Below, piece after piece: positions 5,901-58,168 of a stretch of 64,000 nucleotides of DNA. The notes beneath the pieces are model-generated. The model was not told where the DNA came from, made no database searches, and worked only from the letters and a program-made list of their open reading frames with translations. The first letter of the stretch is position 1. The number at the start of each line of letters is the position of its first letter. Made by a program: the position numbers and the translations under genes. The DNA comes from Bacteroidota bacterium (GTDB lineage: Bacteria > Bacteroidota > Ignavibacteria > UBA10030 > SZUA-254). Where the stretch lies: positions 22,039-86,038 of the forward strand of contig JAWOKN010000018.1 of assembly GCA_033854175.1 (NCBI GenBank), in the 5' to 3' direction.

Positions 5901-7306
5901 ATCTCCTTCCCCGTTGAGTCGTATTCAATCGTCAGATATGAGAATGCCGTCGTACTGTCGAACCGCGAATATCCCGTCACGTAAATATGCCCCTCCGTTG
6001 ATACAGCAGTCCCGATGGCATAATCATCCCCATGGTAGGGATTGTCGTAGAGCTGTTCCCAAACGATGCTGCCCGTGGCATGATCGTATTTGACCGTGAG
6101 GTAATTGGCGGATCCTCCGGAAGTGACGACGCCGGTGACAATAATATTTCCGTTGTTGTCCCGCGCAATACCTGTGGTTTTTTTCGGCCCGGAATTTACT
6201 CCGTTATACACCGATGTCCAGTGTAACACCCCCCCGGAGGAGTACTGAAGAACCAGATAGGACATCGCGGGGTCGCTCGTCCCGGTAAATCCCGCGATAT
6301 CCACATTCCCGCTGTCATCTGCAATGATTCCTGTCGAGTAATCCGTTCCGGCGGTCGAGTAAAATGCCCTCCACTGCTCGGCCCCTTCCTGATCATACTG
6401 AAGAGTGATAATGTCCAATCCGGTACCCGATCCCTCAGTCATACCCGTGTAACAGACTGTTCCGCCGGGATTGACGAAAAGACCGGTCGGTTTGTCTGCT
6501 CCGTGAGACGGACCGTCAAAAAGTCTCACCCACCGTTCGCCACCGCCGGGTGAGTACGATATCAGGACGATGTCGTCATCCGTTCCGGTGTCATAACAGT
6601 AACCCAGGATATAACAGTTCCCCGAGGTATCAACCCCGACGGCAATGGCGACATCATTGCTGTCTCCCGTCCCCTGATACGTGTTCGTCCAGATCGTATT
6701 CCCCGAGGAATCGTACTTGACGGTGAGGATATCCGTTCCCCTTGTCGGATCGACCGTGTAGCCGGTAACATAAACATTATGCCCGCGGTCGACAGCCACG
6801 GCGAAAGGTTCTGAATATCCGTTGTCCGGACCCGAGGACCGCGCTTCCCACCTCAAATCCCCCCGTCGGTCATACTTCATCGTCAAAAAGTCCCCGTCAC
6901 TGTAGGTCCGCTGACTGACAGCCGTAACATAGACGTTACCATTGCTGTCCGCAGCGATCGCATTTGGATAATCCGAGGATGGTACCAGATCGGATGAGAA
7001 GTGCCTCGCCCAGGCGACTCCGACGCTTTCTCCCGATGCAACCGATAAATCGACTCTTGGAGGAACGATGGAAAATGGGGACTTTTGCGTGCGATCGCGG
7101 AACCGGTCCGCTGGTGATGATCCATGCCGACCTGCTTGTATGTGCGGACTCGGAATACCGAGATAGCCGAGACGCGCAGGAATTTCAGCGTGAGGAGGCA
7201 TTTTGCGGGAAGGGACAGAGTCTGCCCCCCCCTTCACCTGCGGATGCGCAAGAGTGAGAATGAAGAAGGTGAGATACAACATCACTACGCTGTCTCTTAA
7301 CCTCAT
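2909..7306 (-). CDS. giant secreted SBBP (beta-propeller) repeat protein with a T9SS C-terminal sorting domain
   Basis: 1465 aa. N-terminal signal peptide (MRLRDSVVMLYLTFFILTLAHPQV). About 25 degenerate ~45-55-aa repeats of the type YDxxGxxxWxxxYNG...D.A.AIAVDxxGNIYVTG, which match the SBBP beta-propeller repeat. The C-terminus (...YSLYQNYPNPFNSTTILTYSL...VRLNVYNTLGQRV...GIFFYKL) is a typical Por_Secre_tail/T9SS CTD. Confidence 0.7.
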   Translation of the reverse strand: MRLRDSVVMLYLTFFILTLAHPQVKGGADSVPSRKMPPHAEIPARLGYLGIPSPHIQAGRHGSSPADRFRDRTQKSPFSIVPPRVDLSVASGESVGVAWARHFSSDLVPSSDYPNAIAADSNGNVYVTAVSQRTYSDGDFLTMKYDRRGDLRWEARSSGPDNGYSEPFAVAVDRGHNVYVTGYTVDPTRGTDILTVKYDSSGNTIWTNTYQGTGDSNDVAIAVGVDTSGNCYILGYCYDTGTDDDIVLISYSPGGGERWVRLFDGPSHGADKPTGLFVNPGGTVCYTGMTEGSGTGLDIITLQYDQEGAEQWRAFYSTAGTDYSTGIIADDSGNVDIAGFTGTSDPAMSYLVLQYSSGGVLHWTSVYNGVNSGPKKTTGIARDNNGNIIVTGVVTSGGSANYLTVKYDHATGSIVWEQLYDNPYHGDDYAIGTAVSTEGHIYVTGYSRFDSTTAFSYLTIEYDSTGKEILTDRFVPNGSDAVPTGIVNDNNTNIFICGPVIANSFDIEVLKYSYYQQGQLAITVDLGNTDDRLGGMAVDPTGHIYLCGSNGQSIAVVKYDNKLNFIWKTILPDLINPSVVACKLDQNQNLVLAGYARSQKGDYDILTSVVSSSGAVSWIQTYNGPDSLDDKAVALAIDGNGGIIVTGTSYSPNTFNDIVTLRYTPDGYLLWASRYNFWYNHDDIPSGIAMDHEQNIYITGTTVRPNTSNDILLLKYDTNGVQQWAKYFNGPGDGADYGRAIAVDVNDIVYVTGKIYGGETSSNVVLLKYTTAGDLIWNAIYQGNETSDKEPMGLVLDPKGFPVIAGMAYHAASSFDFLTLKYDTSGVLAWRAEYDGPVHGSDYAVSLTTDIAGDIYVVGNSLGSGSGIDIATLKYDIYGALQWIQRYDGSSSLDDEAVGIVVDSSANVFVGGTSYDDQTGYDFAIIKYLFPPIESWPVRYDGPGTSGDMTGAVTADPDGNVYVTGQSESANLSISCSTFKCDDGGNQIWSDYYEGTANSLNIGRDIDMMGNGNLVITGYDQEIGAPSFNYLTMQYTPEGMIDWTKTFSATGSSYNFATHLAVSGLQSVYVSGYTYNEGTGFDFSTVKYSPAGIQQWSAQYNDAYDDNDLMTALVVDRSENVYVTGLSGNGRRSTDFATVKYSPTGTQRWAAIYDGPSHLDDRPVAIAADSDGNIYVTGWTLSATTEHDIVTVKYDTAGVQKWVALYNGPANNRDEPVSVAVGQNGDIYVAGTSYNAYFTYPEFILIKYTPDGQQEWVQRYSGAPSSDNLLKKMVLDRAGKIYMTGVSTDSNGISDAITLKYDTSGNILWTARMSESHNASIVPADLVIDSDTGVIVAGTTSGQTWSVFTLVKYQQRISDDVKRESEAPLAYSLYQNYPNPFNSTTILTYSLAARSHVRLNVYNTLGQRVASLVDANQGPGTFHISYDASRLPSGIFFYKLDAANPFPGRGGHTGFTDVKKMTLMK

Positions 7307-25151: not shown

Positions 25152-25215
25152 TTCAGAGATAATGAAATATTGTCGAGGTTGTTCACGATCGTCTGAATCT
25201 AAAACTCCTTTCTCG

Positions 25216-25289
<74 letters not shown>

Positions 25290-25306
25290 TGGTAAGGCTT
25301 CTGGCG

Positions 25307-25392
25307 TGCCGGGGACCGGAATCGAACCGGCACTCTCCTTGCGGGGAACAGGATTTTAAGTCCTGTGCGTCTACCAGTTTCGCCACCCCGGC
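25307..25392 (-). tRNA. tRNA-Leu (anticodon TAA), long variable arm
   Basis: 86 nt: GCCGGGGTGGCGAAACTGGTAGACGCACAGGACTTAAAATCCTGTTCCCCGCAAGGAGAGTGCCGGTTCGATTCCGGTCCCCGGCA. Anticodon loop CTTAAAA; class II variable arm. Confidence 0.9.
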
Positions 25393-25458
25393 CGATGAAG
25401 GCAATGTCAAAAGTTTACAAAAAGGTTGATCCCCTGCTTCCTTTTTGAATTGCCTGAG

Positions 25459-25530
25459 AGGCGCCGGGCGGATTCGGACCGCCGCATAAAGGTTTTGCAG
25501 ACCTCTCCCTTACCACTTGGGTACGGCGCC
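25459..25530 (-). tRNA. tRNA-Cys (anticodon GCA)
   Basis: 72 nt: GGCGCCGTACCCAAGTGGTAAGGGAGAGGTCTGCAAAACCTTTATGCGGCGGTCCGAATCCGCCCGGCGCCT. Anticodon loop CTGCAAA; discriminator U as in Cys tRNAs. Confidence 0.85.
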
Positions 25531-25655
25531 AGGAACTTTTTAAAATAATGCCCCGCCATCTGTACAGACCGGATGCGGCAGGGCGCGGCATCATACTCGT
25601 GCCAGATCATGATCCTGCCGGAAAACCGGCGAGGGATCTCTCTGACATGACCTTG

Positions 25656-25730
<75 letters not shown>

Positions 25731-43299: not shown

Positions 43300-43409
43300 C
43301 CTGCAACGGTCCTTTCCGGATGTACGATCATGTGCTTTTCTGGCAGTTGATGGTGGAGCAAGGGTCGGAACTTTCTCGCCCTGGCGCCGACGAGGTGTCG
43401 CCGCAAGGG

Positions 43410-44084
43410 CTACGAGAGGTCGAGCATTTTGATGTCTTTGATGTACTTGATGGTCTTATCGACCTTCAGGGATTTCAGCTTGTCCAGCTTCGACATGATG
43501 CGGTGGACGTTCTCATCGATGATTTTGATGTAGTTCTTGTGCGCCTCCAGGTTCGGCTGGCGCTTGAATTCTTCTGTGATATCGAACATTTCACTGAGCG
43601 GGGACTCAAAGTCGTGGATCACCCCGGCGAGCGTCTGGTGGATGGCCTTCAGCCGTTCCTGGCTGATTTCAAGTTCGGTTTTCTGCCGTTGAAGCCGGTA
43701 TTTTTCCACAATCCTCAGGACCGTCTTTGGCAAGATCGGAGAGGAGATTTCTTCCTTGACAAGATAATCATCGACACCGAGCTTCATCACATCCAGCGCG
43801 AGGTCAAAATCCTTGTTGACGGTGAGAAAGACAATCGGGACCGAGATCCGTTTCCCCTTGATGTCTTTTGTGATCTCCAGGCCGTTCTTCCCGGGGAGAA
43901 AATAATCCATCAGGACGATGTCGATACCGGTGTTCTGCTCCAGTTCCTTCATGGCATCGGCGTGATTTTCCTTCCAGATCACCTCGAACAGGTTTTTTTG
44001 GAAGCGCTGGAGATAGGCCTGTACGAGCTTCGCGAAGTCTTTGTTATCCTCGACCAGGAGGATCCGAATTATCGATGTTTCCAC
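43410..44084 (-). CDS. response regulator with a C-terminal HisKA-like (DHp) domain and no ATPase domain
   Basis: 224 aa. REC domain (LLVEDNKDFAKL...DIVLMDYFLPGKNG...VFLTVNKD) followed by a helical region with an H-box-like motif LAGVIHDFESPLSEMFDITEE (compare SHELRTPL of HisKA). No HATPase_c motifs. Confidence 0.75.
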   Translation of the reverse strand: METSIIRILLVEDNKDFAKLVQAYLQRFQKNLFEVIWKENHADAMKELEQNTGIDIVLMDYFLPGKNGLEITKDIKGKRISVPIVFLTVNKDFDLALDVMKLGVDDYLVKEEISSPILPKTVLRIVEKYRLQRQKTELEISQERLKAIHQTLAGVIHDFESPLSEMFDITEEFKRQPNLEAHKNYIKIIDENVHRIMSKLDKLKSLKVDKTIKYIKDIKMLDLS

Positions 44085-44093
44085 GCTATGTCT

Positions 44094-47000
44094 CTAGGGC
44101 AGTTGTGTCATGGGCAGCGTCAGGAAAAAGGTCGAACCGACTCCGATCTCGGATTCGACCCAGATCGCGCCTTTGTGCATTTCAATGATTTTTTTCACGA
44201 TCGCAAGACCCGCACCGCTTCCTTCATATTCCTCACGCCGGTGAAGCCGTTGAAAAATGACGAAGATCTTGCCAAAATACTCCTTTTCAATGCCGATGCC
44301 GTTGTCCTTCACCCAAAAAAGATAATAATTATTTTCCGCATTTCGAAATCCGACCTCCACAACAGGTTCCGGCTTGTCATTGAACTTGATCGCATTACCG
44401 ATGAGATTCCGAAAGACGATTTTCAGGTGGATCTCATTCCCCCAGACATCCGGGAGGTTTTCAGGCACCTGAAACCGGACATTGCGCTTGGTGATGATGA
44501 ATTTCATGTCGGCCAGGGTTTCCTGGATGACGCCGTTCATCGACACGGACCGGTAGGCCTCGGATGGCCGGCTGAGCCGGGAGAGAAGAAGAAGATCGTC
44601 GATAAGCCCCTTCATCCTCGTCGTCGCCCCAACGATCGACAACAGATATTCCCTCCCCTCCTCCTGAAACATGTCCCGGTAATCGTCTTGGAGTATCCTG
44701 CTGAATCCCTCGATGCTGATCAAAGGCTCCTTCAGGTCATGGGAGACGACATAGGTAAAATCGTCCAGTTCCTTGTTTCGCCGCTGGATTTCCTCCGATA
44801 TGTGTATCGTCTCCTCGTACAATTTTCCCTTGTCAAGCGCAATCGCGGCAAGGTTGGCGACGTTCTCCAGGGTGTACCGCTGGTGTTCGCCATACGGCTC
44901 GTCAGGCGCCCCGTGGAGCGTGATCACGCCGGTGATCGCCTCTTTTGAGAGCATCGGAACCGACAGGACCGACTGATCCTCGTTGATGAACGAGCGCCGG
45001 AACGAGATCGCCCGATGCTCGGGTGAATCGTACGGAAATTCAGTCAGGGGAGTGGAGGTGAACGTCTGGACATCACCCGACGGGGTGCAGACGACCTCGT
45101 GCTGAACCGAATGTGTGGGATTTGCCTCATCATAGGACATAAGACCGAATCTTCTATAGGGAATGAGGCGGAAAATATTCTGCGCGACAATCGTGATGAT
45201 CCGGTCGATCTCCAGCGCCGAGGTGAGCTGCTGGCTGAGTTCATACAGCGCGGTCAGACTGTCAATTTGCGAGCGCAACTCGCTGTATAACCGCGCAGCC
45301 TCGATCGCGGAGCCCAGCTGGCTTCCCACAAGCGTCAGGATCTGACGGTCCTGCTCAGAAAACTGAGTCGGTTGACCATAGAAAAAATCCAGCGCCCCGG
45401 TGACATTATCCTTCGACAGGAGCGGAATCACCGCCATCGACTCGTACGACAGATTCCGAAGAACCTGGCGGTTGTGTGCAAGGATTCTCTGATCCTCATA
45501 GGCGCGCCGTTCGACGTACAGCGGTTCGCGCATGTCGATCACGGTACCCGTCAGCGAGTTATTCCTCTTCAGACGCGCCAGGGACTGAAATACGGATTCC
45601 TCAAAACCGATCTGCATGGCCGCAGTCAGCTCCTCGGATCCCGTCCGCGTGAGATAGACGATGACCGCCTCCGCTCCGCTCACAAGACGCAACAGGGGAA
45701 GAGAGGCGTCGAGCATCTCATCCAGGCTCCGGGAGGTGCTTACGCGGGAGGAGATTTCCGTCAGTAACAACAACTGATCGTTGAACCGGCGCAGCTGCGA
45801 TTCGCTGTCTTTCAGAGCCGTGATGTCAGTGTAGGTAAACACCAGGCCGCTGATACCCCCGCCGTTACCCATCGGATTCACGGTAATCTGATATATCCTC
45901 CCCGCCGGGGATCCGTGGAACATGTATTCATCCGAGTAGATCGCAAGCGTCCCATCCAGCAGACGCGGGATGACATCCCGCAGGGTTTCACGCAGGGACG
46001 CATCCGGCAGAACATCGAAGAGATGCTTTCCCGTGTATTCACCCTCTACCTGTGAGCCGGATTCGAGCACAAACTGATGCCCGGCATGATTGACCTCGCG
46101 TATTCTGCAATCCCTGTCGACGGTGATGACAATGTTGTCGACGGAATCGAGCAGACTCCGGATGTAGGTCGAGTCGTCCCGCACCTGGCGGAAGAGCTGG
46201 ATGCGATCAATGATCGCCCCGAGGTGCTGGATGATCGGCTGCAGGAGTTCGGCATGACTGCTGTTGTATGCCCCTTGCGTGCCGTATGCGACGTTCAGCG
46301 TCCCGGCCACCTTTCCCTTCAGCAGAATCGGAACACATAACTGTGAACGCATCCCCCCACTCAGGCTTACCAGCTCGCGATAGACCGGCTCCGCGAGAAG
46401 ATCGTCGACAATCATCGGCCTTGCATCGGACAGGACATTCCGGGAGAGGGTTTTTTCGAGCGGGATGCGGTCTCCCTGCTTCACGACCGATGTGCCCGCA
46501 ACCGCATACATCAGAAGGGCCGTATGATCCTCCGTGAACAATCCTATCGAAAGAGCATCAAACGGAAGGAGTTTCCCGATTTCATCCTTCAACAGGGAAA
46601 ACACCTCCTCGAAATCGTTCGTCTCGTTTGCCTTGCCGACGATGCGGTTGATCAGCTCAATCTGCGTGTTGCGGTGCTCAAGATCCTTCATTAACCGGAT
46701 TCTCTCGGTGATATCCCGAGCCACATTGAGCATCCCGACCGGCTGACCCGACGCACCCCGCAGGAGCGTCGTGCTGACACTCACCGGGATCCTGTCACCG
46801 TCCCTTGTTTGCCAGGTCATGTCAAAATCATGGAGCCATTTTTTCTCCCTCAGCGAGGCTATCCACAGGACGTAACGTCCCATCTCCTCTTCCATAAGCC
46901 AGGGATACGGAAACTTGCATCCGGTTGCCTCAGCAGGGGAAAATCCCAAAACGGTTTCAAACGAGCGGTTGAATTGTTGAACCGCCCCCTCCAGATCGGT

Positions 47001-50000
47001 GATCATGACTATATCACCCATCGTATCGAGCACATTCCGTAATACCTGCTCCGAATTCTGAATGGCCTCCTCCCGCAGCCTGCCCGATGTTATGTCAGTA
47101 AAAAGACAGATGACACCCGAGTGGACACCAAGGTTGTTTTTCAGAACCGTAATCCGTATGCGGTAGTACCGCGCGTCTTTCTCCGATCTTCCCCCGAGCC
47201 GGATCTCCTCCTGCCGGGGAGCGCCATCCGCAACCGTCTGCCGCATCACCGCCAGCATATGCTCTCCGGTATCCGCGGGAAAGAGGTTTGTCACCGGTTT
47301 TCCACGAAGTGCATGAAAGGGCCGCTTTGTTATTTCCTCGGTCCGCTGATTGGCATACGAGATCAGATAATCATTGCCGCAGACGACAACCGGTCCGTCA
47401 ATCCCCGCAAGTACCGCTTCCCGTTCCCCCAGGGTTTCACCGAGCTCCTGCATCGCCTTCTTCTCCTGAGTGACATCCCTCACCGTCCCGACCAGGCTGC
47501 GGATCGATCCATCCTTCCCCCGCAGAATTGTCAGCCTGTCAAGAACCGTGAGATAGGTCGCTTTCCCCTTCGGCATCATCCGGTACTCGATGACGGGGGC
47601 GGCAGGTAATTCTTCGAGTCGCGTGATCCGTTCCAGGAGAAGGCGTTTGTCGTCGGGATGAACGAGGCTTATCCAGAGAGACCGGTTGCGCTGAAATTCC
47701 TTTGGTGCATGGCCGAGGAGCGCCTCCACGGTGTCGCTCAGATACTCGTACCGCCCTTCTGCAGTGAGACGGTAGTGTATCTCCTCACCCGTGTCCACGA
47801 GATGATGGTACTGCGCAACGGCTTGCTCAAGATGCAGCAGGGCCGCCGCGGAGTCGATGATCGCTCCGAGTTCCTTTCCCAGCAGGCTATACAGCCGCTT
47901 CGCGTAAACGGGTCCCGACCCCCCCGTGCCGCTCACACCGAGCAGCATGATACCCAGCGCACTCTCGTGCGATAGGAGGGGTATGAGACAGATTGTTTTC
48001 AGATCGGTCGACCGGAAAACTGACCGGTGTGCCAGATACGTCGGATATCGTTCAACCTGAATGAGATGGGGTTCCTTCGTTTTCGCAAGATAGCCGCCGA
48101 TACCTTCATCCGCAGGCAACTGCGATAATTTCTCGTGAAGGATCGGGGGGAGATGGCGCGATGTTTTGATGCTGAATTCTTTCCCGCCCTCCCCCCGGAC
48201 ATAGATCGCACCGCAGGTCCAGTGAAAAATGTCCAGAAATTTATGCAGCGACGACTGAAGGATCTTCTGGAAGTCACCCTTTGCATGAAAGGTGGTGACG
48301 ATCTCGTTGAGAAAATCCACCTCCATGCCGAGCTGCCGCGCCTCACCGACAAGCCGGGCGGTTTCCGTGACATCCGCATAGGAGAACAGCAGACGGCCGT
48401 CGGCGTGATCCAGGGGGGTGACGGTGACCTCCACGATCCGCCGTTCATCACCTGTCTGTTTTGCGGTAAACCTGTGCGTGACACATCCGCTTTTTTGAAA
48501 ATTCCGCCGGGAGCATTTTTCCGGGATCCACTCCCCGATTGGTTCCTCCTCGATAACCGCGTGTGGCCGGCCGTAGATCTCCTCTCCCGCCGCAATGCCG
48601 AAATACTTCAGGAATGCGGGATTGCAGTACCTGAACAATCCCTCTTGGAGGATGGCCAGCGGCGAGGGCGCGGCATCGGCAAGTTTCGAAAACAATTCCT
48701 CGCGCCTGGCAACCTGTTCACGGATGTCCCGAGCAGCCGTAAGATCAATACAGAGGATCTGCAGGCACGCCGCACCCTGATACACCACCGAGGATGACGA
48801 GAGACGGCAGTAGGCACGGCGGCCGTCTCCCGTCTGAAGCTCGATTTCGGCCGACACAGGGGGATCTCCCGCCCTCCGGCTCAGAATTTCCCTGATCCGC
48901 GCCTGATACCCGGGAGCGCAAATATCCGCAAGAGACTTTCTGAGGATGCTCTCATCAGCTTCATACCGGAATGCGATGCTGAATGCCCTGTTCCTGAAAA
49001 TGATCTTCCGTTCCCGGAGGAGGAGATAGGGATCAGGGATGCCCTGAAGAAACCGTTCGTATTCATCCTCCAGTGCAGCGAAACGGCCCTGCTCCTTCTG
49101 CGTGCGGGTGGTGTCGCGGATGATGGCCCCCGCCAGATCCTCTCCCACCACCGAGAAATGTACCTCAAGGTTCAAAATAGCCTTCTCCCGCCGGTAGGAC
49201 ACCTGAACGGTATCGGATTTCTTTCTCCGGAGGGCGCGGATCGCCCTCAGGAGTTTGAATTTCCCGCCCGGAAGCAGATTCTGAAAACCCTTGTGGAGAA
49301 TGAAGTCATCCCGCCCGAGCTTCAGCAGATCGAGAGTTTCCCCGTTCGGTTCGATGTACCCGCTTTTCAGGTTAACAAGGACAAAGGGGTCGCGAATCTC
49401 ACGGAAAAACGACTCGTAGGGTTCCGTCGGTTCCGTTTTCACCGGCTCCGTCTCAGTTTCCCGCTCACCCGACTCCCCTTTCGACTCCAGGATCATGCGC
49501 CTGAGGGAAACCGGTTCCGGAATTTCCTGGACAGGCTTGTACCGCCCTGCCAGTGAAATCGGATAGAGGAACAGATCATCACCCCGTCCGACGGCATCGA
49601 AGCAGACCGAGGCCGCGTCCTTGATCGCCGCCAGGGATGAGAGTCTGAATGACGTCCTGACCAAACCGCCGAACAGAAGCCACCTTTTTTTGGCAGCCAG
49701 GGATGCAACATACTTCAGCCCTTCTACGACACGCTCCTCACGACCAAACATGCGGATCCAGAGCGACAACTCCCCGAGCAGAAGAATCCTCCGTGCCGGT
49801 ATCGACCGCACGATCCTTTGAAATGAAACCTGGGAGATGACCGAACCCCTGCGGAGGCCTTTCTCTAATCCGAGGCGGCTGTAATGACGGCCCGGCAATC
49901 CCTGCCGGGAATAATCGTGATCCGGGAGAATGTGGACAATGCGCGCAGCCGGCGGAAGAGTATCAAGGAGATAATCCCGCCACCGGCACCACGCCTCGGA

Positions 50001-50102
50001 AGAGGTTGAGATGACGAAAATCGACTCGCCTGTGCGGATACCACCAAGATAGGTATCCAGGTATTTTAAGCTTCCCGAAATAGTATCAGCCGGTATGGCC
50101 AC
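44094..50102 (-). CDS. giant soluble sensor histidine kinase with multiple PAS/GAF domains
   Basis: 2002 aa. C-terminal HisKA H-box (VVSHDLKEPL) and HATPase_c (N-box NLIGNAIKF, G-boxes DNGIGI, GSGAGLAIVKKII). Upstream of these are roughly 8-10 PAS and GAF-like modules separated by coiled-coil linkers. No TM helices and no receiver domain. The N-terminal ~150 aa resemble a RecA/KaiC-fold region lacking a Walker A lysine (ISGSLKYLDTYLGGIRTGESIFVISTSSEAW). The start codon appears to be GTG. Confidence 0.85.
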   Translation of the reverse strand: MAIPADTISGSLKYLDTYLGGIRTGESIFVISTSSEAWCRWRDYLLDTLPPAARIVHILPDHDYSRQGLPGRHYSRLGLEKGLRRGSVISQVSFQRIVRSIPARRILLLGELSLWIRMFGREERVVEGLKYVASLAAKKRWLLFGGLVRTSFRLSSLAAIKDAASVCFDAVGRGDDLFLYPISLAGRYKPVQEIPEPVSLRRMILESKGESGERETETEPVKTEPTEPYESFFREIRDPFVLVNLKSGYIEPNGETLDLLKLGRDDFILHKGFQNLLPGGKFKLLRAIRALRRKKSDTVQVSYRREKAILNLEVHFSVVGEDLAGAIIRDTTRTQKEQGRFAALEDEYERFLQGIPDPYLLLRERKIIFRNRAFSIAFRYEADESILRKSLADICAPGYQARIREILSRRAGDPPVSAEIELQTGDGRRAYCRLSSSSVVYQGAACLQILCIDLTAARDIREQVARREELFSKLADAAPSPLAILQEGLFRYCNPAFLKYFGIAAGEEIYGRPHAVIEEEPIGEWIPEKCSRRNFQKSGCVTHRFTAKQTGDERRIVEVTVTPLDHADGRLLFSYADVTETARLVGEARQLGMEVDFLNEIVTTFHAKGDFQKILQSSLHKFLDIFHWTCGAIYVRGEGGKEFSIKTSRHLPPILHEKLSQLPADEGIGGYLAKTKEPHLIQVERYPTYLAHRSVFRSTDLKTICLIPLLSHESALGIMLLGVSGTGGSGPVYAKRLYSLLGKELGAIIDSAAALLHLEQAVAQYHHLVDTGEEIHYRLTAEGRYEYLSDTVEALLGHAPKEFQRNRSLWISLVHPDDKRLLLERITRLEELPAAPVIEYRMMPKGKATYLTVLDRLTILRGKDGSIRSLVGTVRDVTQEKKAMQELGETLGEREAVLAGIDGPVVVCGNDYLISYANQRTEEITKRPFHALRGKPVTNLFPADTGEHMLAVMRQTVADGAPRQEEIRLGGRSEKDARYYRIRITVLKNNLGVHSGVICLFTDITSGRLREEAIQNSEQVLRNVLDTMGDIVMITDLEGAVQQFNRSFETVLGFSPAEATGCKFPYPWLMEEEMGRYVLWIASLREKKWLHDFDMTWQTRDGDRIPVSVSTTLLRGASGQPVGMLNVARDITERIRLMKDLEHRNTQIELINRIVGKANETNDFEEVFSLLKDEIGKLLPFDALSIGLFTEDHTALLMYAVAGTSVVKQGDRIPLEKTLSRNVLSDARPMIVDDLLAEPVYRELVSLSGGMRSQLCVPILLKGKVAGTLNVAYGTQGAYNSSHAELLQPIIQHLGAIIDRIQLFRQVRDDSTYIRSLLDSVDNIVITVDRDCRIREVNHAGHQFVLESGSQVEGEYTGKHLFDVLPDASLRETLRDVIPRLLDGTLAIYSDEYMFHGSPAGRIYQITVNPMGNGGGISGLVFTYTDITALKDSESQLRRFNDQLLLLTEISSRVSTSRSLDEMLDASLPLLRLVSGAEAVIVYLTRTGSEELTAAMQIGFEESVFQSLARLKRNNSLTGTVIDMREPLYVERRAYEDQRILAHNRQVLRNLSYESMAVIPLLSKDNVTGALDFFYGQPTQFSEQDRQILTLVGSQLGSAIEAARLYSELRSQIDSLTALYELSQQLTSALEIDRIITIVAQNIFRLIPYRRFGLMSYDEANPTHSVQHEVVCTPSGDVQTFTSTPLTEFPYDSPEHRAISFRRSFINEDQSVLSVPMLSKEAITGVITLHGAPDEPYGEHQRYTLENVANLAAIALDKGKLYEETIHISEEIQRRNKELDDFTYVVSHDLKEPLISIEGFSRILQDDYRDMFQEEGREYLLSIVGATTRMKGLIDDLLLLSRLSRPSEAYRSVSMNGVIQETLADMKFIITKRNVRFQVPENLPDVWGNEIHLKIVFRNLIGNAIKFNDKPEPVVEVGFRNAENNYYLFWVKDNGIGIEKEYFGKIFVIFQRLHRREEYEGSGAGLAIVKKIIEMHKGAIWVESEIGVGSTFFLTLPMTQLP

Positions 50103-50146: not shown

Positions 50147-50192
50147 CGATCGTAATAAAATAGAAAGGGCGACCTTATGCAAGTCGCCCTTT
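50147..50192 (-). terminator. rho-independent terminator downstream of the FadL-like OMP gene
   Basis: Minus strand AAAGGGCGAC-UUGCAUAAG-GUCGCCCUUU (10-bp stem) followed by CUAUUUUAUUAC, immediately after the stop at 50216 and upstream of the HK start. Approximate coordinates. Confidence 0.55.
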
Positions 50193-50215: not shown

Positions 50216-51613
50216 TTACTCGCCGAAGTTGTAGCTTGCGGTAAGATATCCGAACGTGTTGATGTTGTCCTGCGCGCCGATGAGTCCGAGGCCGCGACGC
50301 AAGGCTTCCTCGCTGACGGTTGCATCGAGGGCGAATCCGCTGAACTTCAGCCCAACACCCAGTGTCACGAGTCCATCCCAGTTGGAGGCGTTGATACCGC
50401 CGAGTGAGACAAAGCTGTTCGGATTTGTCTGACTGAATTCCGCGGTATAGCCGGGATTCTCGATTTTCTGGTCAACACTCCCCAGCCAGCGGAAATATCC
50501 CGCACGGCCAGTGAGCCAATCGGTGAGCGTCCATTCCATACCGAGGTTAATAACCGGTATCGCATCATCCGATAATGTCGAGGTGGTGGTCACACGGGCA
50601 GCCGGCGGGGCCGCTGATCCAGGAGTTTGCTCGACTTTTTCCCTGAATGATTCGAAACTCAGACCACCTGCGAAATAGAAGTTTCCGGTTCTGTATTCAC
50701 CACCGGCACCGACCGCAAAGGTCAGGAGGCTGAAGCTGATATCAAACGGTGTCGTGGTGATGCCATCCGGACGCGTGTCCTCATTCGGACTTGCTGACGC
50801 TGTGCTCAATGAGGCGAAGGGAACAAAATTGAATTTGCTCGATACGTTGAATTTTCCCCTTGCCATGATGTCGAACTCGGTCCCCGACGAGGAGTATTCA
50901 CCGCTGTTGGTGGATGCAATCGGCGTGCCTGTTTCTTTATCATCGGCTTTATCCAGGCGAAACGCCGCCGCCGCGTCAAAACTGCTTCCACCGCCGAGAT
51001 TGACATTCACACCGGCCCGGACTCCCATCACACGCGAACTCGTCGATGAATCACCCGTGATACTTCCGGCCGAATTGTTGAACTTGCTTTCACTGTTTGA
51101 GTAGCCGTACATGACCGCAAATCCCAGATCGAGATTTGTCATCCGTGTCGATGCGACTAATTCCCACACGTTCCTCACCGGTGGAATGAACTGTGCATTC
51201 CGCGGTGCCTGCACGATGGTGCTCGGGAGCTGCGAATTGAAATTCACCAACGAAGGATCATAACTCAAAATTACTCCCAGGTTCCAACTATCGTTGAGGC
51301 CGAATGCCACGCCGGCGTTCTGGTTAAAGTATCCATCATCGGAAATAGAGCCGCCACTGTTGGACAATCCGGTCATTGCGCCGCCGCCGACGTTGAACCA
51401 GGCATAATCTTTGTAGGAGGCCTGATATGCCGGATTGAAGAACATCAGTGAGGGATCGTCGATAATGAACGGATTCATGACCGACATCGAGGTCACCCCG
51501 GTATTGGAACCGCCCATTGCCAATTCGCGGGCATACCCTCCGGGTTTCGCCTGTGAATAAGCCAGAGAGCTTATCGCGATCAGCAATACCACTACGATAG
51601 CAAGTTGTTTCAT
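50216..51613 (-). CDS. outer membrane beta-barrel protein, FadL/TodX(PorV)-family-like transporter
   Basis: 465 aa. Signal peptide (MKQLAIVVVLLIAISSLAYSQA). N-terminal hatch-like segment with an NPA motif (MFFNPAYQA) as in FadL-family proteins. Alternating Gly/aromatic beta-strand pattern throughout. Lies 1.6 kb from a beta-oxidation operon. Confidence 0.5.
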   Translation of the reverse strand: MKQLAIVVVLLIAISSLAYSQAKPGGYARELAMGGSNTGVTSMSVMNPFIIDDPSLMFFNPAYQASYKDYAWFNVGGGAMTGLSNSGGSISDDGYFNQNAGVAFGLNDSWNLGVILSYDPSLVNFNSQLPSTIVQAPRNAQFIPPVRNVWELVASTRMTNLDLGFAVMYGYSNSESKFNNSAGSITGDSSTSSRVMGVRAGVNVNLGGGSSFDAAAAFRLDKADDKETGTPIASTNSGEYSSSGTEFDIMARGKFNVSSKFNFVPFASLSTASASPNEDTRPDGITTTPFDISFSLLTFAVGAGGEYRTGNFYFAGGLSFESFREKVEQTPGSAAPPAARVTTTSTLSDDAIPVINLGMEWTLTDWLTGRAGYFRWLGSVDQKIENPGYTAEFSQTNPNSFVSLGGINASNWDGLVTLGVGLKFSGFALDATVSEEALRRGLGLIGAQDNINTFGYLTASYNFGE

Positions 51614-51733: not shown

Positions 51734-52321
51734 TTATTCCAAATCAAATACTAAACCAAGACCGAATCCCACCCAGCTCGTTGTGCTGCCTTCTGTGAAG
51801 ACCGCCGAGTAGTTTGCATGCACATCCACCCACATTTTATCCCCGGCCTTGAATTGTGCGCCAAGAACAGGCGAAACCCCGAATTTCGAGGTGCTGCTGC
51901 TCACACTTACTGTTGCACTGCCTACGGTTTCATCTGCGCTTGCTGACAAAACATATAATCCAACATTTGCCTGCCCGTATACCCGTGTGTCACCCGGCAT
52001 AAAGTAATACTTGCCGCCCAGAACAATCGGAATTATCCCCCATTTTGTGTTGATTGTCCCGCCGGTGAATGGATCACTAATATCCTTCCCGCTGAAATGC
52101 ACATAACCGGATGACAAGGTGAGTTGGAACGCCGGGTCGAACCCGTTGTACCCGACGAATGCAAGACCGCCAATACCGAAATTGCTCGCATTATTGAAAT
52201 CCCCCACCGGTACTCCTCCTTCGGCTCCAACACCGATCGACCATTGGCTCGGGCCTGCAGTCTGCCCATAAAGCGGCAATGCAATAATCAATAAGGCAAC
52301 CATTATCGCTAATTTCTTCAT
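51734..52321 (-). CDS. small outer membrane beta-barrel protein (OmpW/PF13505-like)
   Basis: 195 aa. Signal peptide, alternating amphipathic strands, Gly-rich, C-terminal aromatic-rich strand (GFGLGLVFDLE). Confidence 0.55.
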   Translation of the reverse strand: MKKLAIMVALLIIALPLYGQTAGPSQWSIGVGAEGGVPVGDFNNASNFGIGGLAFVGYNGFDPAFQLTLSSGYVHFSGKDISDPFTGGTINTKWGIIPIVLGGKYYFMPGDTRVYGQANVGLYVLSASADETVGSATVSVSSSTSKFGVSPVLGAQFKAGDKMWVDVHANYSAVFTEGSTTSWVGFGLGLVFDLE

Positions 52322-52712: not shown

Positions 52713-53189
52713 TTACGGGAGCGTGAAGCGAATGCCCGAGGTCAATGCAAAATAAAACGAAGATGATCCGCTTGTGAATACAGGACCAAATTGCAGATCG
52801 GCAGGTATGGAGACCTGACTGTTGATCGGAAAGTAAAATCCTCCACCAAAACGGAGCCCGAAATACGGTCCACCGGTAAAGGCCCACAAATTAAATCCGC
52901 CATCGATGTACGGTTGGATATTTGTCGTCGGCATGTCGATCAGATACTTGGCGAAAACAGCCCATTCAATGGGGGTGGAATTCTGTGTGTTGATGTTGAG
53001 GTCGGACCCAAACAATATATTATGTTTGTAGGCATAATCCCCCGTCACGCCAATCTGCACTCCGGCCGATGAGCCGCCATCCACACTCAAATTTGAAAAA
53101 CCAAACCTTCCCCCCAGGGTAACCGTTTGTGCCCGGCTCGCGATGGAAAAGATCATCAAAAGGGCAAGAACGAGAAATGCTGATTTCAT
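52713..53189 (-). CDS. small outer membrane beta-barrel protein
   Basis: 158 aa. Signal peptide (MKSAFLVLALLMIFSIASRAQ), beta-strand periodicity, ends in aromatic-rich FTLP. Confidence 0.5.
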   Translation of the reverse strand: MKSAFLVLALLMIFSIASRAQTVTLGGRFGFSNLSVDGGSSAGVQIGVTGDYAYKHNILFGSDLNINTQNSTPIEWAVFAKYLIDMPTTNIQPYIDGGFNLWAFTGGPYFGLRFGGGFYFPINSQVSIPADLQFGPVFTSGSSSFYFALTSGIRFTLP

Positions 53190-56629: not shown

Positions 56630-58168
56630 CTATTTGAGTCTGACAAACTCGATCCGGCGGTTTTTCGCGCGCCCCGCCGCAGTCGAATTGTCAGCGATCG
56701 GCTTTGTAAAGCCGAATCCCTTTGTCGTGATTCTCGAACCCGCAATTCCTTTCTTGACAAGATATGCCTTCACCGCTTCAGCCCGGCCAACGGAGAGCTT
56801 CATGTTGTATTTTGCCCCGCCAACGTTGTCGGTGTGACCGTGAATGGCAACCTCCGCCTCGGGATATTTCATCAGGCTCGCCGCAACCTGATCCAGAATA
56901 CTTCTCGCGGTCGGGAGGAGTACAGTTTTGCCCGTCTCAAAATTCACGCCTTCCAGTATGATCCTCTCCCCCACGTTGATGATCGGAACGTCATCCGAGG
57001 GGTCAAGGGGATTTAATCCGAGCTGGATCTCTTTTCCATCGGGCATCCCGCCCCCATCAGTGTCCATCTTCAGGGGATCAGTATGATATTTCAGGACTTC
57101 GTCGCCATCGGTCAAACCATCACCGTCGGTATCCTTGTTCAGAGGGTCGGTGTGATACTTCAGGACCTCGTCGCCATCGGTCAAACCATCACCGTCAGTA
57201 TCCTTGTTCAACGGATCGGTATGATATTTCAGGACCTCGTCGCCATCGGTCAAACCATCACCGTCAGTATCCTTGTTCAACGGGTCGGTGTGGTATTTCA
57301 GGACTTCTTCGCCATCGCTCAATCCGTCACCGTCGGTATCATACTTCAAGGGATCAGTGTGATATTTCAGGACCTCATCCCCATCGCTCAATCCGTCACC
57401 ATCGGTGTCCCATTTCAGCGGATCCGTGTGATAGATGTGAACCTCTTCACCATCCTTGAGACCATCACCATCGGTATCCGGATTGTTGGGATCCGTGCCA
57501 ATCTGCTTCTCTTCATCATTGGTGAGACCATCACGGTCGGGATCATTATCGAACGGCTTCAGGAAGGATGTGATGGTCAGGCCGAAACTCCAGTAGGTAT
57601 CATTCGACCCCGATTTGATGTCATCGAGGTTGTCCGTCGAAAGTGCGTGATAGCTTGCCTGGATGCCGAACGACGTGACATCGGAAACCATGAACTGTAT
57701 ACCCCCGCCCAGGGGGATTTCCGAGGTCAGGTGTCCATACTCGTTATTCGCGTTTCTCGGGAGCGGCAAATCCTGCTGGTTGAGCGGATCAAAATAGAGT
57801 AAACCCGCGCCGGCGAAAGCGTAGGGCTGAAATTTCTGGGTTTTGGTGAAATTGATGATCAGACGGGCATCGATGGGAACAAGTGTCGAGGAAAAATAAT
57901 GGAGGCCATCATCGGCAGCCAGACGCCCCAGACCCACACCCCCCTCGATGGCAAAGAAAGGCGAGGCGTAATACCTCACGAATGCTCTTCCAAGGGGATA
58001 CATCCGGTGCTCTGGTATATCCGTATACGGAGTCCCCTCCCCGAGGTAGATGCCAATACCTACATTCCCTTCAGTTTCAGTTTTATCCGGGAGAACCTGA
58101 GCGAGGATGCGACAATTCGTCATCACGACCATGAGGATGACCGTCAGAACCCATCTGGATGTTTTCAT
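56630..58168 (-). CDS. OmpA-family outer membrane protein with thrombospondin type 3 (Ca-binding) repeats
   Basis: 512 aa. Signal peptide, N-terminal beta-barrel region, about seven 23-aa repeats DTDGDGL(S/T)DG(D/E)[10 protein letters not shown](K/N)x, and a C-terminal OmpA peptidoglycan-binding domain ([21 protein letters not shown]). Confidence 0.85.
57050..57490. repeat. near-identical 69-bp tandem repeats (coding for the TSP3 repeats of the OmpA gene)
   Basis: About 6 consecutive copies of GTCAAACCATCACCGTCGGTATCCTTGTTCAGAGGGTCGGTGTGATACTTCAGGACCTCGTCGCCATCG with only a few substitutions each. Entirely inside the CDS. Approximate coordinates. Confidence 0.85.

What the first reader, a model, noticed from the sequence alone, without database searches (positions are those of the whole stretch)
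43410..50102. 2002-aa soluble multi-PAS/GAF histidine kinase with a degenerate KaiC-like N-terminus, paired with a REC-DHp response regulator lacking an ATPase domain
The kinase has no TM helices. It carries roughly 8-10 PAS/GAF sensory modules ahead of a canonical HisKA/HATPase_c core.

Its first ~150 aa resemble a RecA/KaiC-fold segment (LGGIRTGESIFVISTSS...) in which the Walker A GKT/S is replaced. That points to a pseudo-ATPase scaffolding or regulatory domain.

The adjacent response regulator has a receiver domain fused to a HisKA-like helix containing an H-box-like motif (IHDFESPL) but no catalytic ATPase domain. Such REC-DHp proteins could act as phosphotransfer or phosphatase modules.

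Together they look like a non-standard, multi-input cytoplasmic phosphorelay. The FadL-like OMP and beta-oxidation genes are next to it.
Basis: inference. Interest (0 to 1): 0.55.

Follow-up and report, generated by a model that had tools for sequence, protein, structure and literature searches.

The report
Giant sensor kinase, dead KaiC domain
This is a real two-gene signalling pair conserved across Ignavibacteria: a 2,002-residue soluble sensor kinase that begins with an ATPase-dead KaiC/RecA-like domain, and a receiver protein that ends in a kinase-style helical hairpin. It is unannotated and unstudied, but it is a variation on ordinary two-component signalling, not a new kind of system.

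Summary
Window 44094-50102(-) encodes a 2,002-aa soluble histidine kinase. Nine bases downstream, 43410-44084(-) encodes a 224-aa response regulator.

**Regulator.** It has an intact receiver domain: D13, D60, T88 and K110 are invariant in 80 species. Its C-terminus is a helical hairpin that is a diverged HisKA/DHp domain (22 of 34 relatives hit Pfam HisKA, best E 1.3e-6). There is no ATPase domain.

The "H-box" His157 is His in only 41 of 120 close homologues and 10 of 80 species genomes. A conserved His-phosphorelay is therefore unlikely. The neighbouring outer-membrane protein is not FadL by Pfam.

**Distribution.** The pair sits in core-genome synteny in at least 186 Ignavibacteria-type genomes. 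The transmitter core and the regulator are highly conserved. The N-terminal sensor modules evolve fast and are absent in some lineages.

**Verdict.** A new variant of a known kind, of moderate interest.

The parts
44094..50102 (-). Gene for a 2002-aa soluble multi-sensor histidine kinase (GTG start; end coordinate includes the stop codon)
   Evidence: ORF; translation; Pfam. Orthologues are 39-43% identical and collinear over residues 7-1997.
49503..50102 (-). Kinase residues 1-200: inactivated KaiC/RecA-fold domain with no Walker A. Walker B reads LLLGELS here, against hhhhD[DE]LS in most relatives.
44832..49421 (-). Kinase residues 228-1757: sensor array. It contains a probable PAS at ~228-340, PAS domains at 347-455, 469-583, 779-881, 902-1006, 1021-1133 and 1318-1431, and GAF domains at 611-~760, 1162-1299, 1459-1601 and ~1620-1757.
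   Evidence: Pfam on the whole protein and on overlapping fragments. Per-domain identity to orthologues is 19-68%.
44571..44768 (-). Kinase residues 1779-1844: HisKA (DHp) domain with H-box SHDLKEPL; the phospho-acceptor is His1788
   Evidence: Pfam HisKA at 46.2 bits against a cut-off of 26.9. Motif position. 80-85% identical to orthologues.
44106..44441 (-). Kinase residues 1888-1999: HATPase_c catalytic domain
   Evidence: Pfam HATPase_c at 81.1 bits. G1 (DNGIGI) and G2 (GSGAGL) motifs are visible in the translation. 77-78% identical to orthologues.
43410..44084 (-). Gene for a 224-aa response regulator, 9 nt downstream of the kinase stop codon
   Evidence: 965 homologues, and the best 120 are 63-100% identical over the full length. 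Found in 186 species genomes.
43743..44084 (-). Regulator residues 1-114: receiver domain with D13, D60 (phospho-acceptor), T88 and K110
   Evidence: Pfam Response_reg at 72.5 bits. The four residues are invariant in 80 species (D13 79 of 80 plus one gap).
43413..43736 (-). Regulator residues 117-224: coiled-coil linker plus a degenerate HisKA/DHp-like helical hairpin (helices 117-174, 179-205, 208-220), ending in the invariant tail YIKDIKM(I/L)DLS. His157 sits at the H-box position.
   Evidence: AF2 pLDDT 83.5. Pfam HisKA is hit by 22 of 34 family C-termini, best E 1.3e-6, with this protein at E 0.095. In-register weak matches to WalK and KinB DHp and to the cognate kinase DHp (hhalign P 0.039). 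Column statistics.
50164..50192 (-). Intrinsic-terminator-like hairpin (12-bp stem followed by a T-run). It lies after the upstream outer-membrane-protein gene and marks the 5' boundary of the kinase-regulator unit.

Best explanation
This is a bicistronic two-component system, conserved across the class Ignavibacteria, that uses ordinary phosphotransfer chemistry but has two unusual accessory modules.

**Kinase.** The kinase is cytoplasmic. It integrates signals through about 10-11 PAS/GAF modules, autophosphorylates on His1788 and passes the phosphoryl group to Asp60 of the adjacent regulator. Its first 200 residues are a KaiC/FlaH-type RecA-fold domain that has lost the P-loop, so it cannot bind or hydrolyse ATP in the canonical way. 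It most likely serves as a non-catalytic oligomerisation or partner-binding module that tunes the kinase, much as other degenerate RecA-like domains do. It is lineage-specific and fast-evolving.

**Regulator.** The regulator has no DNA-binding or enzymatic output. Its output is a degenerate DHp hairpin plus an invariant C-terminal tail. The most likely mechanism is phosphorylation-controlled dimerisation into a four-helix bundle and/or binding of a protein partner. It is not a second phosphotransfer step.

**Shown:** the gene structure, the domain identities, the loss of Walker A, the intact receiver site, the non-conservation of His157, the conserved pairing and the synteny.

**Inferred:** the direction of phosphotransfer, the scaffold role of the N-terminal domain and the protein-interaction output of the regulator.
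For: **Kinase core and receiver site**
- The transmitter core is canonical.
- The receiver residues D13, D60, T88 and K110 are invariant.

**Pairing**
- The two genes are 9 nt apart.
- In the loci that retained enough upstream DNA, the ORF ending next to the regulator gene was usually a kinase. In the I. album-type lineage a small REC gene lies in between.
- HisKA is 80-85% and the regulator 63-72% identical between genomes in which the N-terminal third of the kinase is only 19-28% identical.

**N-terminal domain**
- It has a RecA/KaiC fold.
- No glycine-rich loop and no GK[ST] occurs in any of 20 aligned members.
- Its nearest Pfam echoes are other inactive RecA-like families: Elp4 (PAXNEB), Elp5 (Iki1) and DUF835.
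- BcsE's N-terminal domain is among the structural matches.
- The domain is absent from shorter orthologous kinases that keep the same regulator.

**Regulator C-terminus**
- It is a DHp homologue with a variable residue at the His position.
- P162, L163, N192, R195 and the tail are invariant or nearly so.
Against: - No biochemical data exist for any member of this system.
- The DHp assignment for this particular protein is below the Pfam threshold (13 bits against 26.9). It rests on family-level consistency.
- His157 is present in this protein and in about a third of close relatives, so a lineage-specific phospho-His role cannot be excluded.
- No partner for the N-terminal domain or for the regulator tail has been identified.
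- No KaiB- or KaiC-type gene turned up among the window ORFs scanned against Pfam. That scan was not exhaustive: the ORFs between 29389 and 38842 were not scanned.
- AF2 models are monomeric, so dimerisation is assumed from the DHp precedent.
Confidence: 0.55

Rival explanations
1. The regulator is a phosphotransfer module: phosphoryl groups move from Asp60 to His157 of its DHp-like helix, or from the kinase to His157, and then on to a further receiver. This would be a Spo0B-like multi-step phosphorelay.
For: His157 sits exactly at the H-box position of HisKA in three independent alignments. It is followed by the conserved acidic residue and by xxxPL. It is retained in this protein and in its closest relatives.
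Against: The position is His in only 41 of 120 close homologues and in 10 of 80 species genomes, where K, Q, N, G and D are as common. The rest of the domain is under strong constraint. No third component (a second receiver protein) is encoded beside the pair in this window.
Confidence: 0.1
2. The regulator is a phosphorylation-controlled DHp decoy or phosphatase. Its pseudo-DHp hairpin either pairs with the DHp of its own kinase or of other kinases to form inactive heterodimers, or docks other receivers to dephosphorylate or sequester them. Either way it gives feedback or cross-regulation.
For: The C-terminus is a DHp homologue. It lacks the catalytic domain. The acidic residue at His+1 is nearly invariant. 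The regulator and the kinase DHp are both unusually conserved.
Against: Similarity between the regulator hairpin and the cognate kinase DHp is only marginal (hhalign P 0.039, 23% identity). The T/N at His+4 that HisKA phosphatase activity needs is not conserved.
Confidence: 0.18
3. The N-terminal KaiC-like domain is still a working nucleotide-binding or ATPase (or autokinase) module that uses non-canonical residues, and it reports energy status or time to the kinase.
For: The fold is closest to KaiC and FlaH. Most family members keep a Walker-B-like hhhhD[DE]LS motif and the N-terminal STGxxxLDxxxGG motif.
Against: No member has a P-loop Gly-rich segment or Lys-Ser/Thr. The KaiC catalytic EE position is not conserved (alignment). 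This protein has Gly at the Walker B Asp position (LLLGELS). The domain is only 19-28% identical between orthologues and has been lost in some lineages.
Confidence: 0.05
4. The N-terminal 117 residues are not translated. The true start is M118, as in one public gene call, and the 'domain' is an artefact of taking the longest ORF.
For: One NCBI call of this protein is 1,885 aa and starts at M118. No Shine-Dalgarno sequence is visible before the GTG.
Against: Residues 7-117 align with the N-termini of 20 independent homologues, which begin at their own Met 5-10 residues earlier. The AF2 model needs these residues to complete the RecA fold at high confidence. An alternative 2,002-aa call exists. 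The upstream gene's terminator ends 62 nt before the GTG.
Confidence: 0.04

Closest known systems
Archaeal 'iKaiC' domains: inactivated KaiC-like ATPase domains fused to REC, PAS or HalOD1 in archaeal signalling proteins (Galperin et al. 2018, PMC5847659, citing Makarova et al. 2017)
   Same: A KaiC-superfamily fold with lost catalytic motifs, fused to two-component or PAS signalling domains. It is presumed to be a non-enzymatic interaction module.
   Different: Those proteins are archaeal (haloarchaea, Methanosarcinaceae) and belong to different sequence families. Only 1 of 20 members here gives even a faint DUF835 hit. This domain is bacterial, sits at the N-terminus of a complete HisKA/HATPase kinase, and forms its own family, found so far only in Ignavibacteria-type genomes.
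KaiC (CI/CII domains) and archaeal FlaH/ArlH, PH0284, SSO2452
   Different: There is no Walker A and no catalytic glutamates. It is a single domain rather than a duplicated one. Sequence identity is 7-14%. Hexamer formation has not been tested.
Degenerate RecA-like scaffold domains: the BcsE N-terminal domain and Elongator Elp4/5/6
   Same: A RecA fold that is used for assembly or regulation rather than catalysis. They appear among the structural matches and the faint Pfam matches.
   Different: The protein contexts are unrelated (cellulose secretion, tRNA modification). There is no evidence of direct common ancestry beyond the superfamily.
REC-(PAS/GAF)-HisKA response regulators without HATPase, e.g. 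Archaeoglobus fulgidus AF_1472 (PMC5847659); also REC-DHp-CA proteins such as Leptospira LvrB (PDB 8vc9)
   Same: A receiver followed by a DHp-type dimerisation hairpin. [quoted passage not shown] LvrB aligns over 206-237 columns with the regulator model.
   Different: This regulator has no PAS or GAF domain, no catalytic domain, and a non-conserved residue at the His position. The archaeal HisKA-only proteins are described as keeping the His.
Multi-PAS/GAF soluble histidine kinases with small CheY-type partners (phytochrome-type Cph1/Rcp1 arrangement; from my own knowledge)
   Same: A soluble kinase with tandem PAS/GAF sensors and a transmitter of the same HisKA type. In the Ignavibacterium album lineage a single-domain REC is encoded directly after the kinase.
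   Different: No PHY or chromophore-binding signature was tested or seen. The regulator with the pseudo-DHp output and the KaiC-like N-terminus have no counterpart there.

Membership tests
HisKA-type sensor histidine kinase (the 2002-aa protein) | HisKA/DHp domain with H-box His, above the Pfam gathering score | tested here: met
   PF00512 at 46.2 bits against a cut-off of 26.9, residues 1779-1844. SHDLKEPL with His1788.
HisKA-type sensor histidine kinase (the 2002-aa protein) | HATPase_c catalytic domain with N/G1/G2 boxes | tested here: met
   PF02518 at 81.1 bits, residues 1888-1999. DNGIGI and GSGAGL are visible in the translation.
HisKA-type sensor histidine kinase (the 2002-aa protein) | ATP-dependent autophosphorylation and transfer to a cognate receiver | not testable with these tools
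   Needs biochemistry. Adjacency and co-conservation with the regulator are only indirect evidence.
KaiC / RecA-superfamily ATPase (kinase residues 1-200) | RecA-type alpha/beta core fold | tested here: met
KaiC / RecA-superfamily ATPase (kinase residues 1-200) | Walker A P-loop GxxxxGK[ST] | tested here: not met
   KaiC's GATGTGKT aligns to 'sskeawqk'. The motif is absent in all 20 aligned members.
KaiC / RecA-superfamily ATPase (kinase residues 1-200) | Walker B Asp and catalytic Glu pair | tested here: not met
   This protein reads LLLGELS where most relatives have hhhhD[DE]LS. The KaiC EE position is s/d/n in the family.
KaiC / RecA-superfamily ATPase (kinase residues 1-200) | Match to the Pfam KaiC/ATPase model at gathering score | tested here: not met
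   No Pfam family at E<=10 for this protein. The family gives only faint hits to PAXNEB, Iki1 and DUF835.
KaiC / RecA-superfamily ATPase (kinase residues 1-200) | Ring (hexamer) assembly | not testable with these tools
   No multimer prediction or experiment was available.
Response regulator receiver (REC) domain | Acidic pocket, phospho-acceptor Asp, and switch Thr and Lys | tested here: met
   PF00072 at 72.5 bits. D13, D60, T88 and K110 are invariant in 80 species genomes.
HisKA/DHp domain (regulator residues ~145-205) | Two-helix hairpin homologous to HisKA | tested here: inconclusive
   The hairpin is predicted at pLDDT about 85. HisKA is hit by 22 of 34 family members, best E 1.3e-6, but this protein scores 13.2 bits against a cut-off of 26.9. 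In-register weak matches to WalK and KinB (E 0.35-0.5) and to the cognate DHp (P 0.039).
HisKA/DHp domain (regulator residues ~145-205) | Conserved phospho-acceptor His | tested here: not met
   His is present in this protein (H157) but in only 41 of 120 homologues and 10 of 80 species.
HisKA/DHp domain (regulator residues ~145-205) | E/DxxT/N phosphatase motif after the His | tested here: not met
   The +1 position is D/E (117 of 120). The +4 position is variable (V, R, T, K, A, I, S).
His-containing phosphotransfer proteins (Spo0B/HPt type phosphorelay) | An invariant His that shuttles phosphoryl groups between two receivers, with a second receiver available | tested here: not met
   The His is not conserved. 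There is no second receiver gene next to the pair in this window. An extra REC exists only in the I. album-type lineage.

The most novel reading that the evidence does not exclude
The dead KaiC-like domain may be more than a passive scaffold. It could be a docking site that couples this kinase to a KaiC-type ATPase or timer, or that assembles the kinase into RecA-like rings. That would be a bacterial counterpart of the proposed archaeal KaiC signalling hubs. In the same reading, the regulator is a phosphorylation-gated DHp mimic that invades kinase dimers, which would be a previously undescribed response-regulator output.
Probability: 0.12. Interest if true: 0.75.

Novelty: new variant of a known kind. 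Interest (0 to 1): 0.45.

Why it matters
**The regulator as a lineage-wide core component.** The regulator is among the most conserved signalling proteins of a whole bacterial class. It is 49-74% identical among the 80 best of the 186 species genomes that encode a relative. It sits in a housekeeping gene neighbourhood. Yet it has no recognisable output domain and no annotation beyond 'response regulator'. This suggests a core physiological switch whose target is unknown.

**The N-terminal domain as a missing family.** No Pfam model covers it, and public records call the protein only 'PAS domain S-box protein'. It extends the idea of inactivated KaiC-like modules in signalling from archaea to a bacterial histidine kinase.

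**The receiver-plus-pseudo-DHp architecture.** It offers a tractable case for asking what a DHp hairpin does once it has lost both its His and its kinase domain.

None of this overturns how two-component systems are understood. It adds two uncharacterised modules to the repertoire.

Tried and rejected
- **Single-sequence searches of the N-terminus.** Searches against Pfam, the PDB and the word-indexed protein database found nothing meaningful. Only the exhaustive phmmer search and the profile and structure built from it were informative.
- **Foldseek of the whole regulator model.** It was dominated by receiver-domain matches and could not classify the C-terminal hairpin.
- **AlphaFold-database fold library.** It was unavailable.
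- **Literature.** One search with min_terms=1 was uninformative. 'DHp-like' plus 'receiver domain' gave no papers. Makarova et al. 2017 is not held. No paper on an Ignavibacteria two-component system of this type was found.
- **FadL reading of the upstream outer-membrane protein.** Rejected: its only Pfam match at E<=1 is a weak Autotransporter beta-domain hit, so nothing supports FadL.
- **Transmembrane segment.** Rejected: the single hydrophobic peak lies inside GAF1.
- **KaiB/KaiC partner gene in the window.** None was found among the ORFs scanned against Pfam. The ORFs between 29389 and 38842 were not scanned.
- **Transcriptional coupling to the beta-oxidation or outer-membrane-protein genes.** Considered, but a strong terminator lies in between.
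Full report
**1. What is there**

On the minus strand, ORF 44094-50102 (2002 aa, GTG start) is followed after 9 nt by ORF 43410-44084 (224 aa, GTG start).

A 12-bp-stem intrinsic-terminator-like hairpin at 50192-50164(-) closes the upstream outer-membrane-protein gene. It ends 62 nt before the kinase start. The two genes therefore form their own unit. No terminator was detected between the regulator and the downstream carbon-nitrogen hydrolase gene.

The window as a whole is a housekeeping chromosomal region. It carries Phe-, Thr- and Asn/Asp-type tRNA synthetases, Rho, MutL, FtsY, RNase Y, riboflavin and queuosine genes, four tRNAs and an ABC-2 transporter.

**2. The kinase**

Pfam finds HisKA (1779-1844, 46 bits) and HATPase_c (1888-1999, 81 bits), several PAS families and three GAF families. 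Scanning overlapping fragments places the modules as follows:

| Module | Residues |
|---|---|
| PAS | 347-455, 469-583, 779-881, 902-1006, 1021-1133, 1318-1431 |
| GAF | 611-~760 (weak), 1162-1299, 1459-1601, ~1620-1757 |
| Probable PAS, not detected by Pfam | ~228-340 |

Residues ~228-340 look PAS-like. They align with the PAS-type N-termini of shorter orthologues, but Pfam does not detect them.

The H-box is SHDLKEPL, with the His at 1788. There is no transmembrane segment. The only hydrophobic peak (mean 1.67) lies inside GAF1 and contains His, Glu and Ser. The description 'soluble, about 10 sensory modules, canonical transmitter' is confirmed.

**3. The N-terminal 200 residues**

Single-sequence searches found nothing in Pfam, the PDB or the word-indexed protein database. 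An exhaustive phmmer search of 1.84 billion representatives found 21 proteins. Most are 1,850-2,040 aa long, and they align from their own residues 5-10 to residues 7-15 here.

This shows two things. The extension is a conserved, translated domain. And the public 1,885-aa gene call that starts at M118 is truncated; a 2,002-aa call also exists.

The 20-member alignment (A1) has the consensus FSTGLPxLDxYxGGxxxGDSLLxF.S ... IxLDDLSxWK ... LKDxAxxCLDL ... KGRYxP.

Evidence for the fold:
- A profile of A1 searched against PDB sequences returns KaiC CII first (E 8.6e-4). The other hits are almost all KaiC entries plus FlaH (E 0.03) and SSO2452; one of the 31 is an unrelated cold-shock-like protein.
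- In that alignment KaiC's Walker A, GATGTGKT, falls on 'sskeawqk'.
- AlphaFold2 with A1 gives pLDDT 83 and pTM 0.82, with an alternating beta-alpha core.
- Foldseek against the PDB gives FlaH (E 1.7e-8), DMC1, RAD51, RadA, RecA and the BcsE N-terminal domain.

No member has a P-loop. Most keep a Walker-B-like hhhhD[DE]LS, but this protein has LLLGELS. Member-by-member Pfam scans give only faint hits to other inactive RecA-like families: Elp4/PAXNEB in 4 of 20, and Elp5/Iki1 and DUF835 in 1 each.

Conclusion: this is a KaiC/FlaH-type RecA-fold pseudo-ATPase domain that belongs to no current Pfam family.

**4. The regulator**

The receiver domain is canonical (72.5 bits). D13, D60, T88 and K110 are invariant in 80 species genomes.

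AlphaFold2 (120-sequence alignment, pLDDT 83.5) predicts a 58-residue helix (117-174), a turn, a second helix (179-205), a short third helix (208-220) and a low-confidence extreme C-terminus.

Evidence that the C-terminal half is a DHp homologue:
- Scanned alone, the C-terminal halves of 34 relatives hit Pfam HisKA more often than any other family (22 of 34, best E 1.3e-6). This protein scores E 0.095 over profile positions 4-57 of 66.
- A family profile gives weak matches to the DHp of WalK and KinB (E 0.35-0.5) that are in register over both helices.
- hhalign against the DHp alignment of the cognate kinases gives the same register. H157 aligns with H1788, DFESPL with DLKEPL, and NYIKII..N..R with EYLLSIV.A..R (P 0.039).

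For this single sequence the call stays below Pfam's threshold.

**5. The His is not conserved**

Among 120 close homologues (63-100% identical), position 157 is H 41, G 27, K 19, N 7, R 6 and D 5. Among 80 species-representative genomes it is K 16, Q 14, N 12, G 11, H 10, D 5, S 4 and E 3.

By contrast, P162, L163, M166, N192, R195 and the tail YIKDIKM(I/L)DLS are invariant or nearly so. The acidic residue after the His position is kept, but the +4 T/N needed for HisKA phosphatase activity is not.

The conserved function of this domain is therefore not His phosphotransfer. Homodimerisation, or binding of a partner, controlled by phosphorylation of D60, is the most economical reading. A lineage-specific role for His157 cannot be excluded.

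**6. Distribution and evolution**

- The regulator has 965 database homologues at E<=1e-5, and the best 120 are full-length and at least 63% identical.
- A scan of one genome per species found relatives in 186 genomes. The best 80 are nearly all labelled Ignavibacteria, Ignavibacteriota, Chlorobi-group or 'Bacteroidota' MAGs, with a few labelled Chitinophagales, Bacteroidia or simply 'bacterium'. One is an Ignavibacterium album MAG.
- In the loci with enough upstream DNA, the ORF ending next to the regulator gene was usually a histidine kinase.
- About half of the 84 fetched loci (80 from the species scan plus four fetched earlier, some duplicated) have a kinase ORF that matches the KaiC-like domain profile. 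Most of these are about 2,000 aa long. An expanded profile recovers more divergent copies, and one more (L076) is recognisable by eye.
- Several lineages have shorter kinases of 1,680-1,910 aa that begin directly with PAS.
- In the I. album-type lineage the kinase ORF is about 700-930 aa, lacks the KaiC-like domain, and is followed by an extra single-domain receiver before the conserved regulator.
- Flanking genes are syntenic across the class: thiolase, 3-hydroxyacyl-CoA dehydrogenase and acyl-CoA dehydrogenase upstream; asparaginyl/aspartyl-tRNA synthetase, the ABC-2 transporter and Nuo subunits downstream.
- Per-domain identity to orthologues runs from 19-28% in the first third of the protein (KaiC-like domain, first PAS modules) to 65-68% for PAS 1021-1133, 77-78% for HATPase_c and 80-85% for HisKA.

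The picture is a strongly conserved transmitter-regulator output with lineage-specific, fast-evolving inputs. The KaiC-like domain is one of those inputs.

**7. Mechanism**

*Shown.* The kinase is a complete soluble HisKA kinase. Its adjacent regulator is co-conserved and has an intact phospho-acceptor site. The N-terminal domain has a RecA/KaiC fold and has lost the P-loop. The regulator's output is a pseudo-DHp hairpin with a variable 'His' position.

*Inferred.* Phosphotransfer runs from His1788 to Asp60. The pseudo-ATPase domain acts as an oligomerisation or partner-binding module that modulates the kinase, by analogy with the BcsE N-terminal domain, Elp4/5/6 and archaeal iKaiC domains. 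The phosphorylated regulator dimerises through its hairpin and/or engages an unknown partner through the hairpin and the invariant tail.

*Rivals.*
- A His157 phosphorelay, probability about 0.10.
- A DHp decoy or phosphatase acting on kinases or on other receivers, about 0.18.
- A still-active nucleotide-binding N-terminal domain, about 0.05.
- An untranslated N-terminus, about 0.04.

**8. Comparison with what is known**

Galperin et al. 2018 (PMC5847659) describe three relevant classes:
- inactivated KaiC-like ('iKaiC') domains fused to REC, PAS and HalOD1 in archaea;
- 'HisKA, no HATPase' proteins;
- REC-PAS/GAF-HisKA regulators without HATPase, such as AF_1472. [quoted passage not shown]

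The present system combines a bacterial counterpart of the first class with a stripped-down variant of the third, in one conserved operon.

I found no paper describing it. Public records name the kinase only 'PAS domain S-box protein'. They name the regulator 'response regulator' or give assorted automatic labels.

It fails the defining catalytic features of KaiC/RecA ATPases and of phospho-accepting DHp domains, so it should not be filed as either. It should be described as derived from both.

**9. Verdict**

The system is a new variant of a known kind: two-component signalling with an unmodelled pseudo-KaiC input domain and a receiver/pseudo-DHp regulator. Interest is 0.45. It would interest specialists in signal transduction and Ignavibacteria physiology, but the chemistry is probably conventional and the function remains unknown.

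Noticed in passing
window 49752-50102 (kinase residues 1-117): One public gene call of this protein (P0121, 1,885 aa) starts at M118 and cuts the KaiC-like domain in half. Another NCBI call (P0148) has the full 2,002 aa. Homologues support the long form.
   Followed up: yes
L050 7438-7977, L037 7530-7976, L039 7362-7976, L049 7536-7937, L067 7527-7976: In the Ignavibacterium album-type lineage the orthologous kinase ORF is only about 700-930 aa and has no KaiC-like domain. An extra ~135-150-aa single-domain receiver is encoded between the kinase and the conserved REC/pseudo-DHp regulator. A branched or two-receiver pathway may exist there.
   Followed up: partly
window 50216-51613 (-) and 51734-52321 (-): The 'FadL-like' outer-membrane protein matches only the Autotransporter beta-domain (28 bits) and no other Pfam family at E<=1, so nothing supports FadL. 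A second small OMP_b-brl protein lies upstream. Both are replaced by LemA/TPM-type genes in other Ignavibacteria at the same position.
   Followed up: partly
window 43320-44948 (+): A 542-aa ATG ORF runs antisense across the regulator gene and the 3' end of the kinase gene. It is probably a shadow ORF of the strongly coding minus strand. It was not examined.
   Followed up: no
window 2909-7306 (-): A 1,465-aa protein with many SBBP beta-propeller repeats and a C-terminal type IX secretion sorting domain (Por_Secre_tail).
   Followed up: no
window 56630-58168 (-): A 512-aa OmpA-family protein carrying seven bacterial thrombospondin type-3 (TSP3) calcium-binding repeats.
   Followed up: no
window 52713-53189 (-): A 158-aa ORF between the acyl-CoA dehydrogenase and the outer-membrane-protein genes has no Pfam match. 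A similarly placed unannotated ORF (187 aa) occurs in L003.
   Followed up: no
window 25215-25728 (-): A cluster of four tRNA genes (Val-GAC, Leu-TAA, Cys-GCA, Gly-GCC) lies downstream of the ThrRS gene.
   Followed up: no
L076 2319-~2950; L083 1962-~2560: Some orthologous kinases carry N-terminal domains that are even more diverged. The first profile missed them. L083 is recovered by an expanded profile (E 2.7e-6). L076 is recognisable only by eye (…FLKDGADFFLNI…). The true spread of the pseudo-KaiC domain is therefore underestimated.
   Followed up: partly
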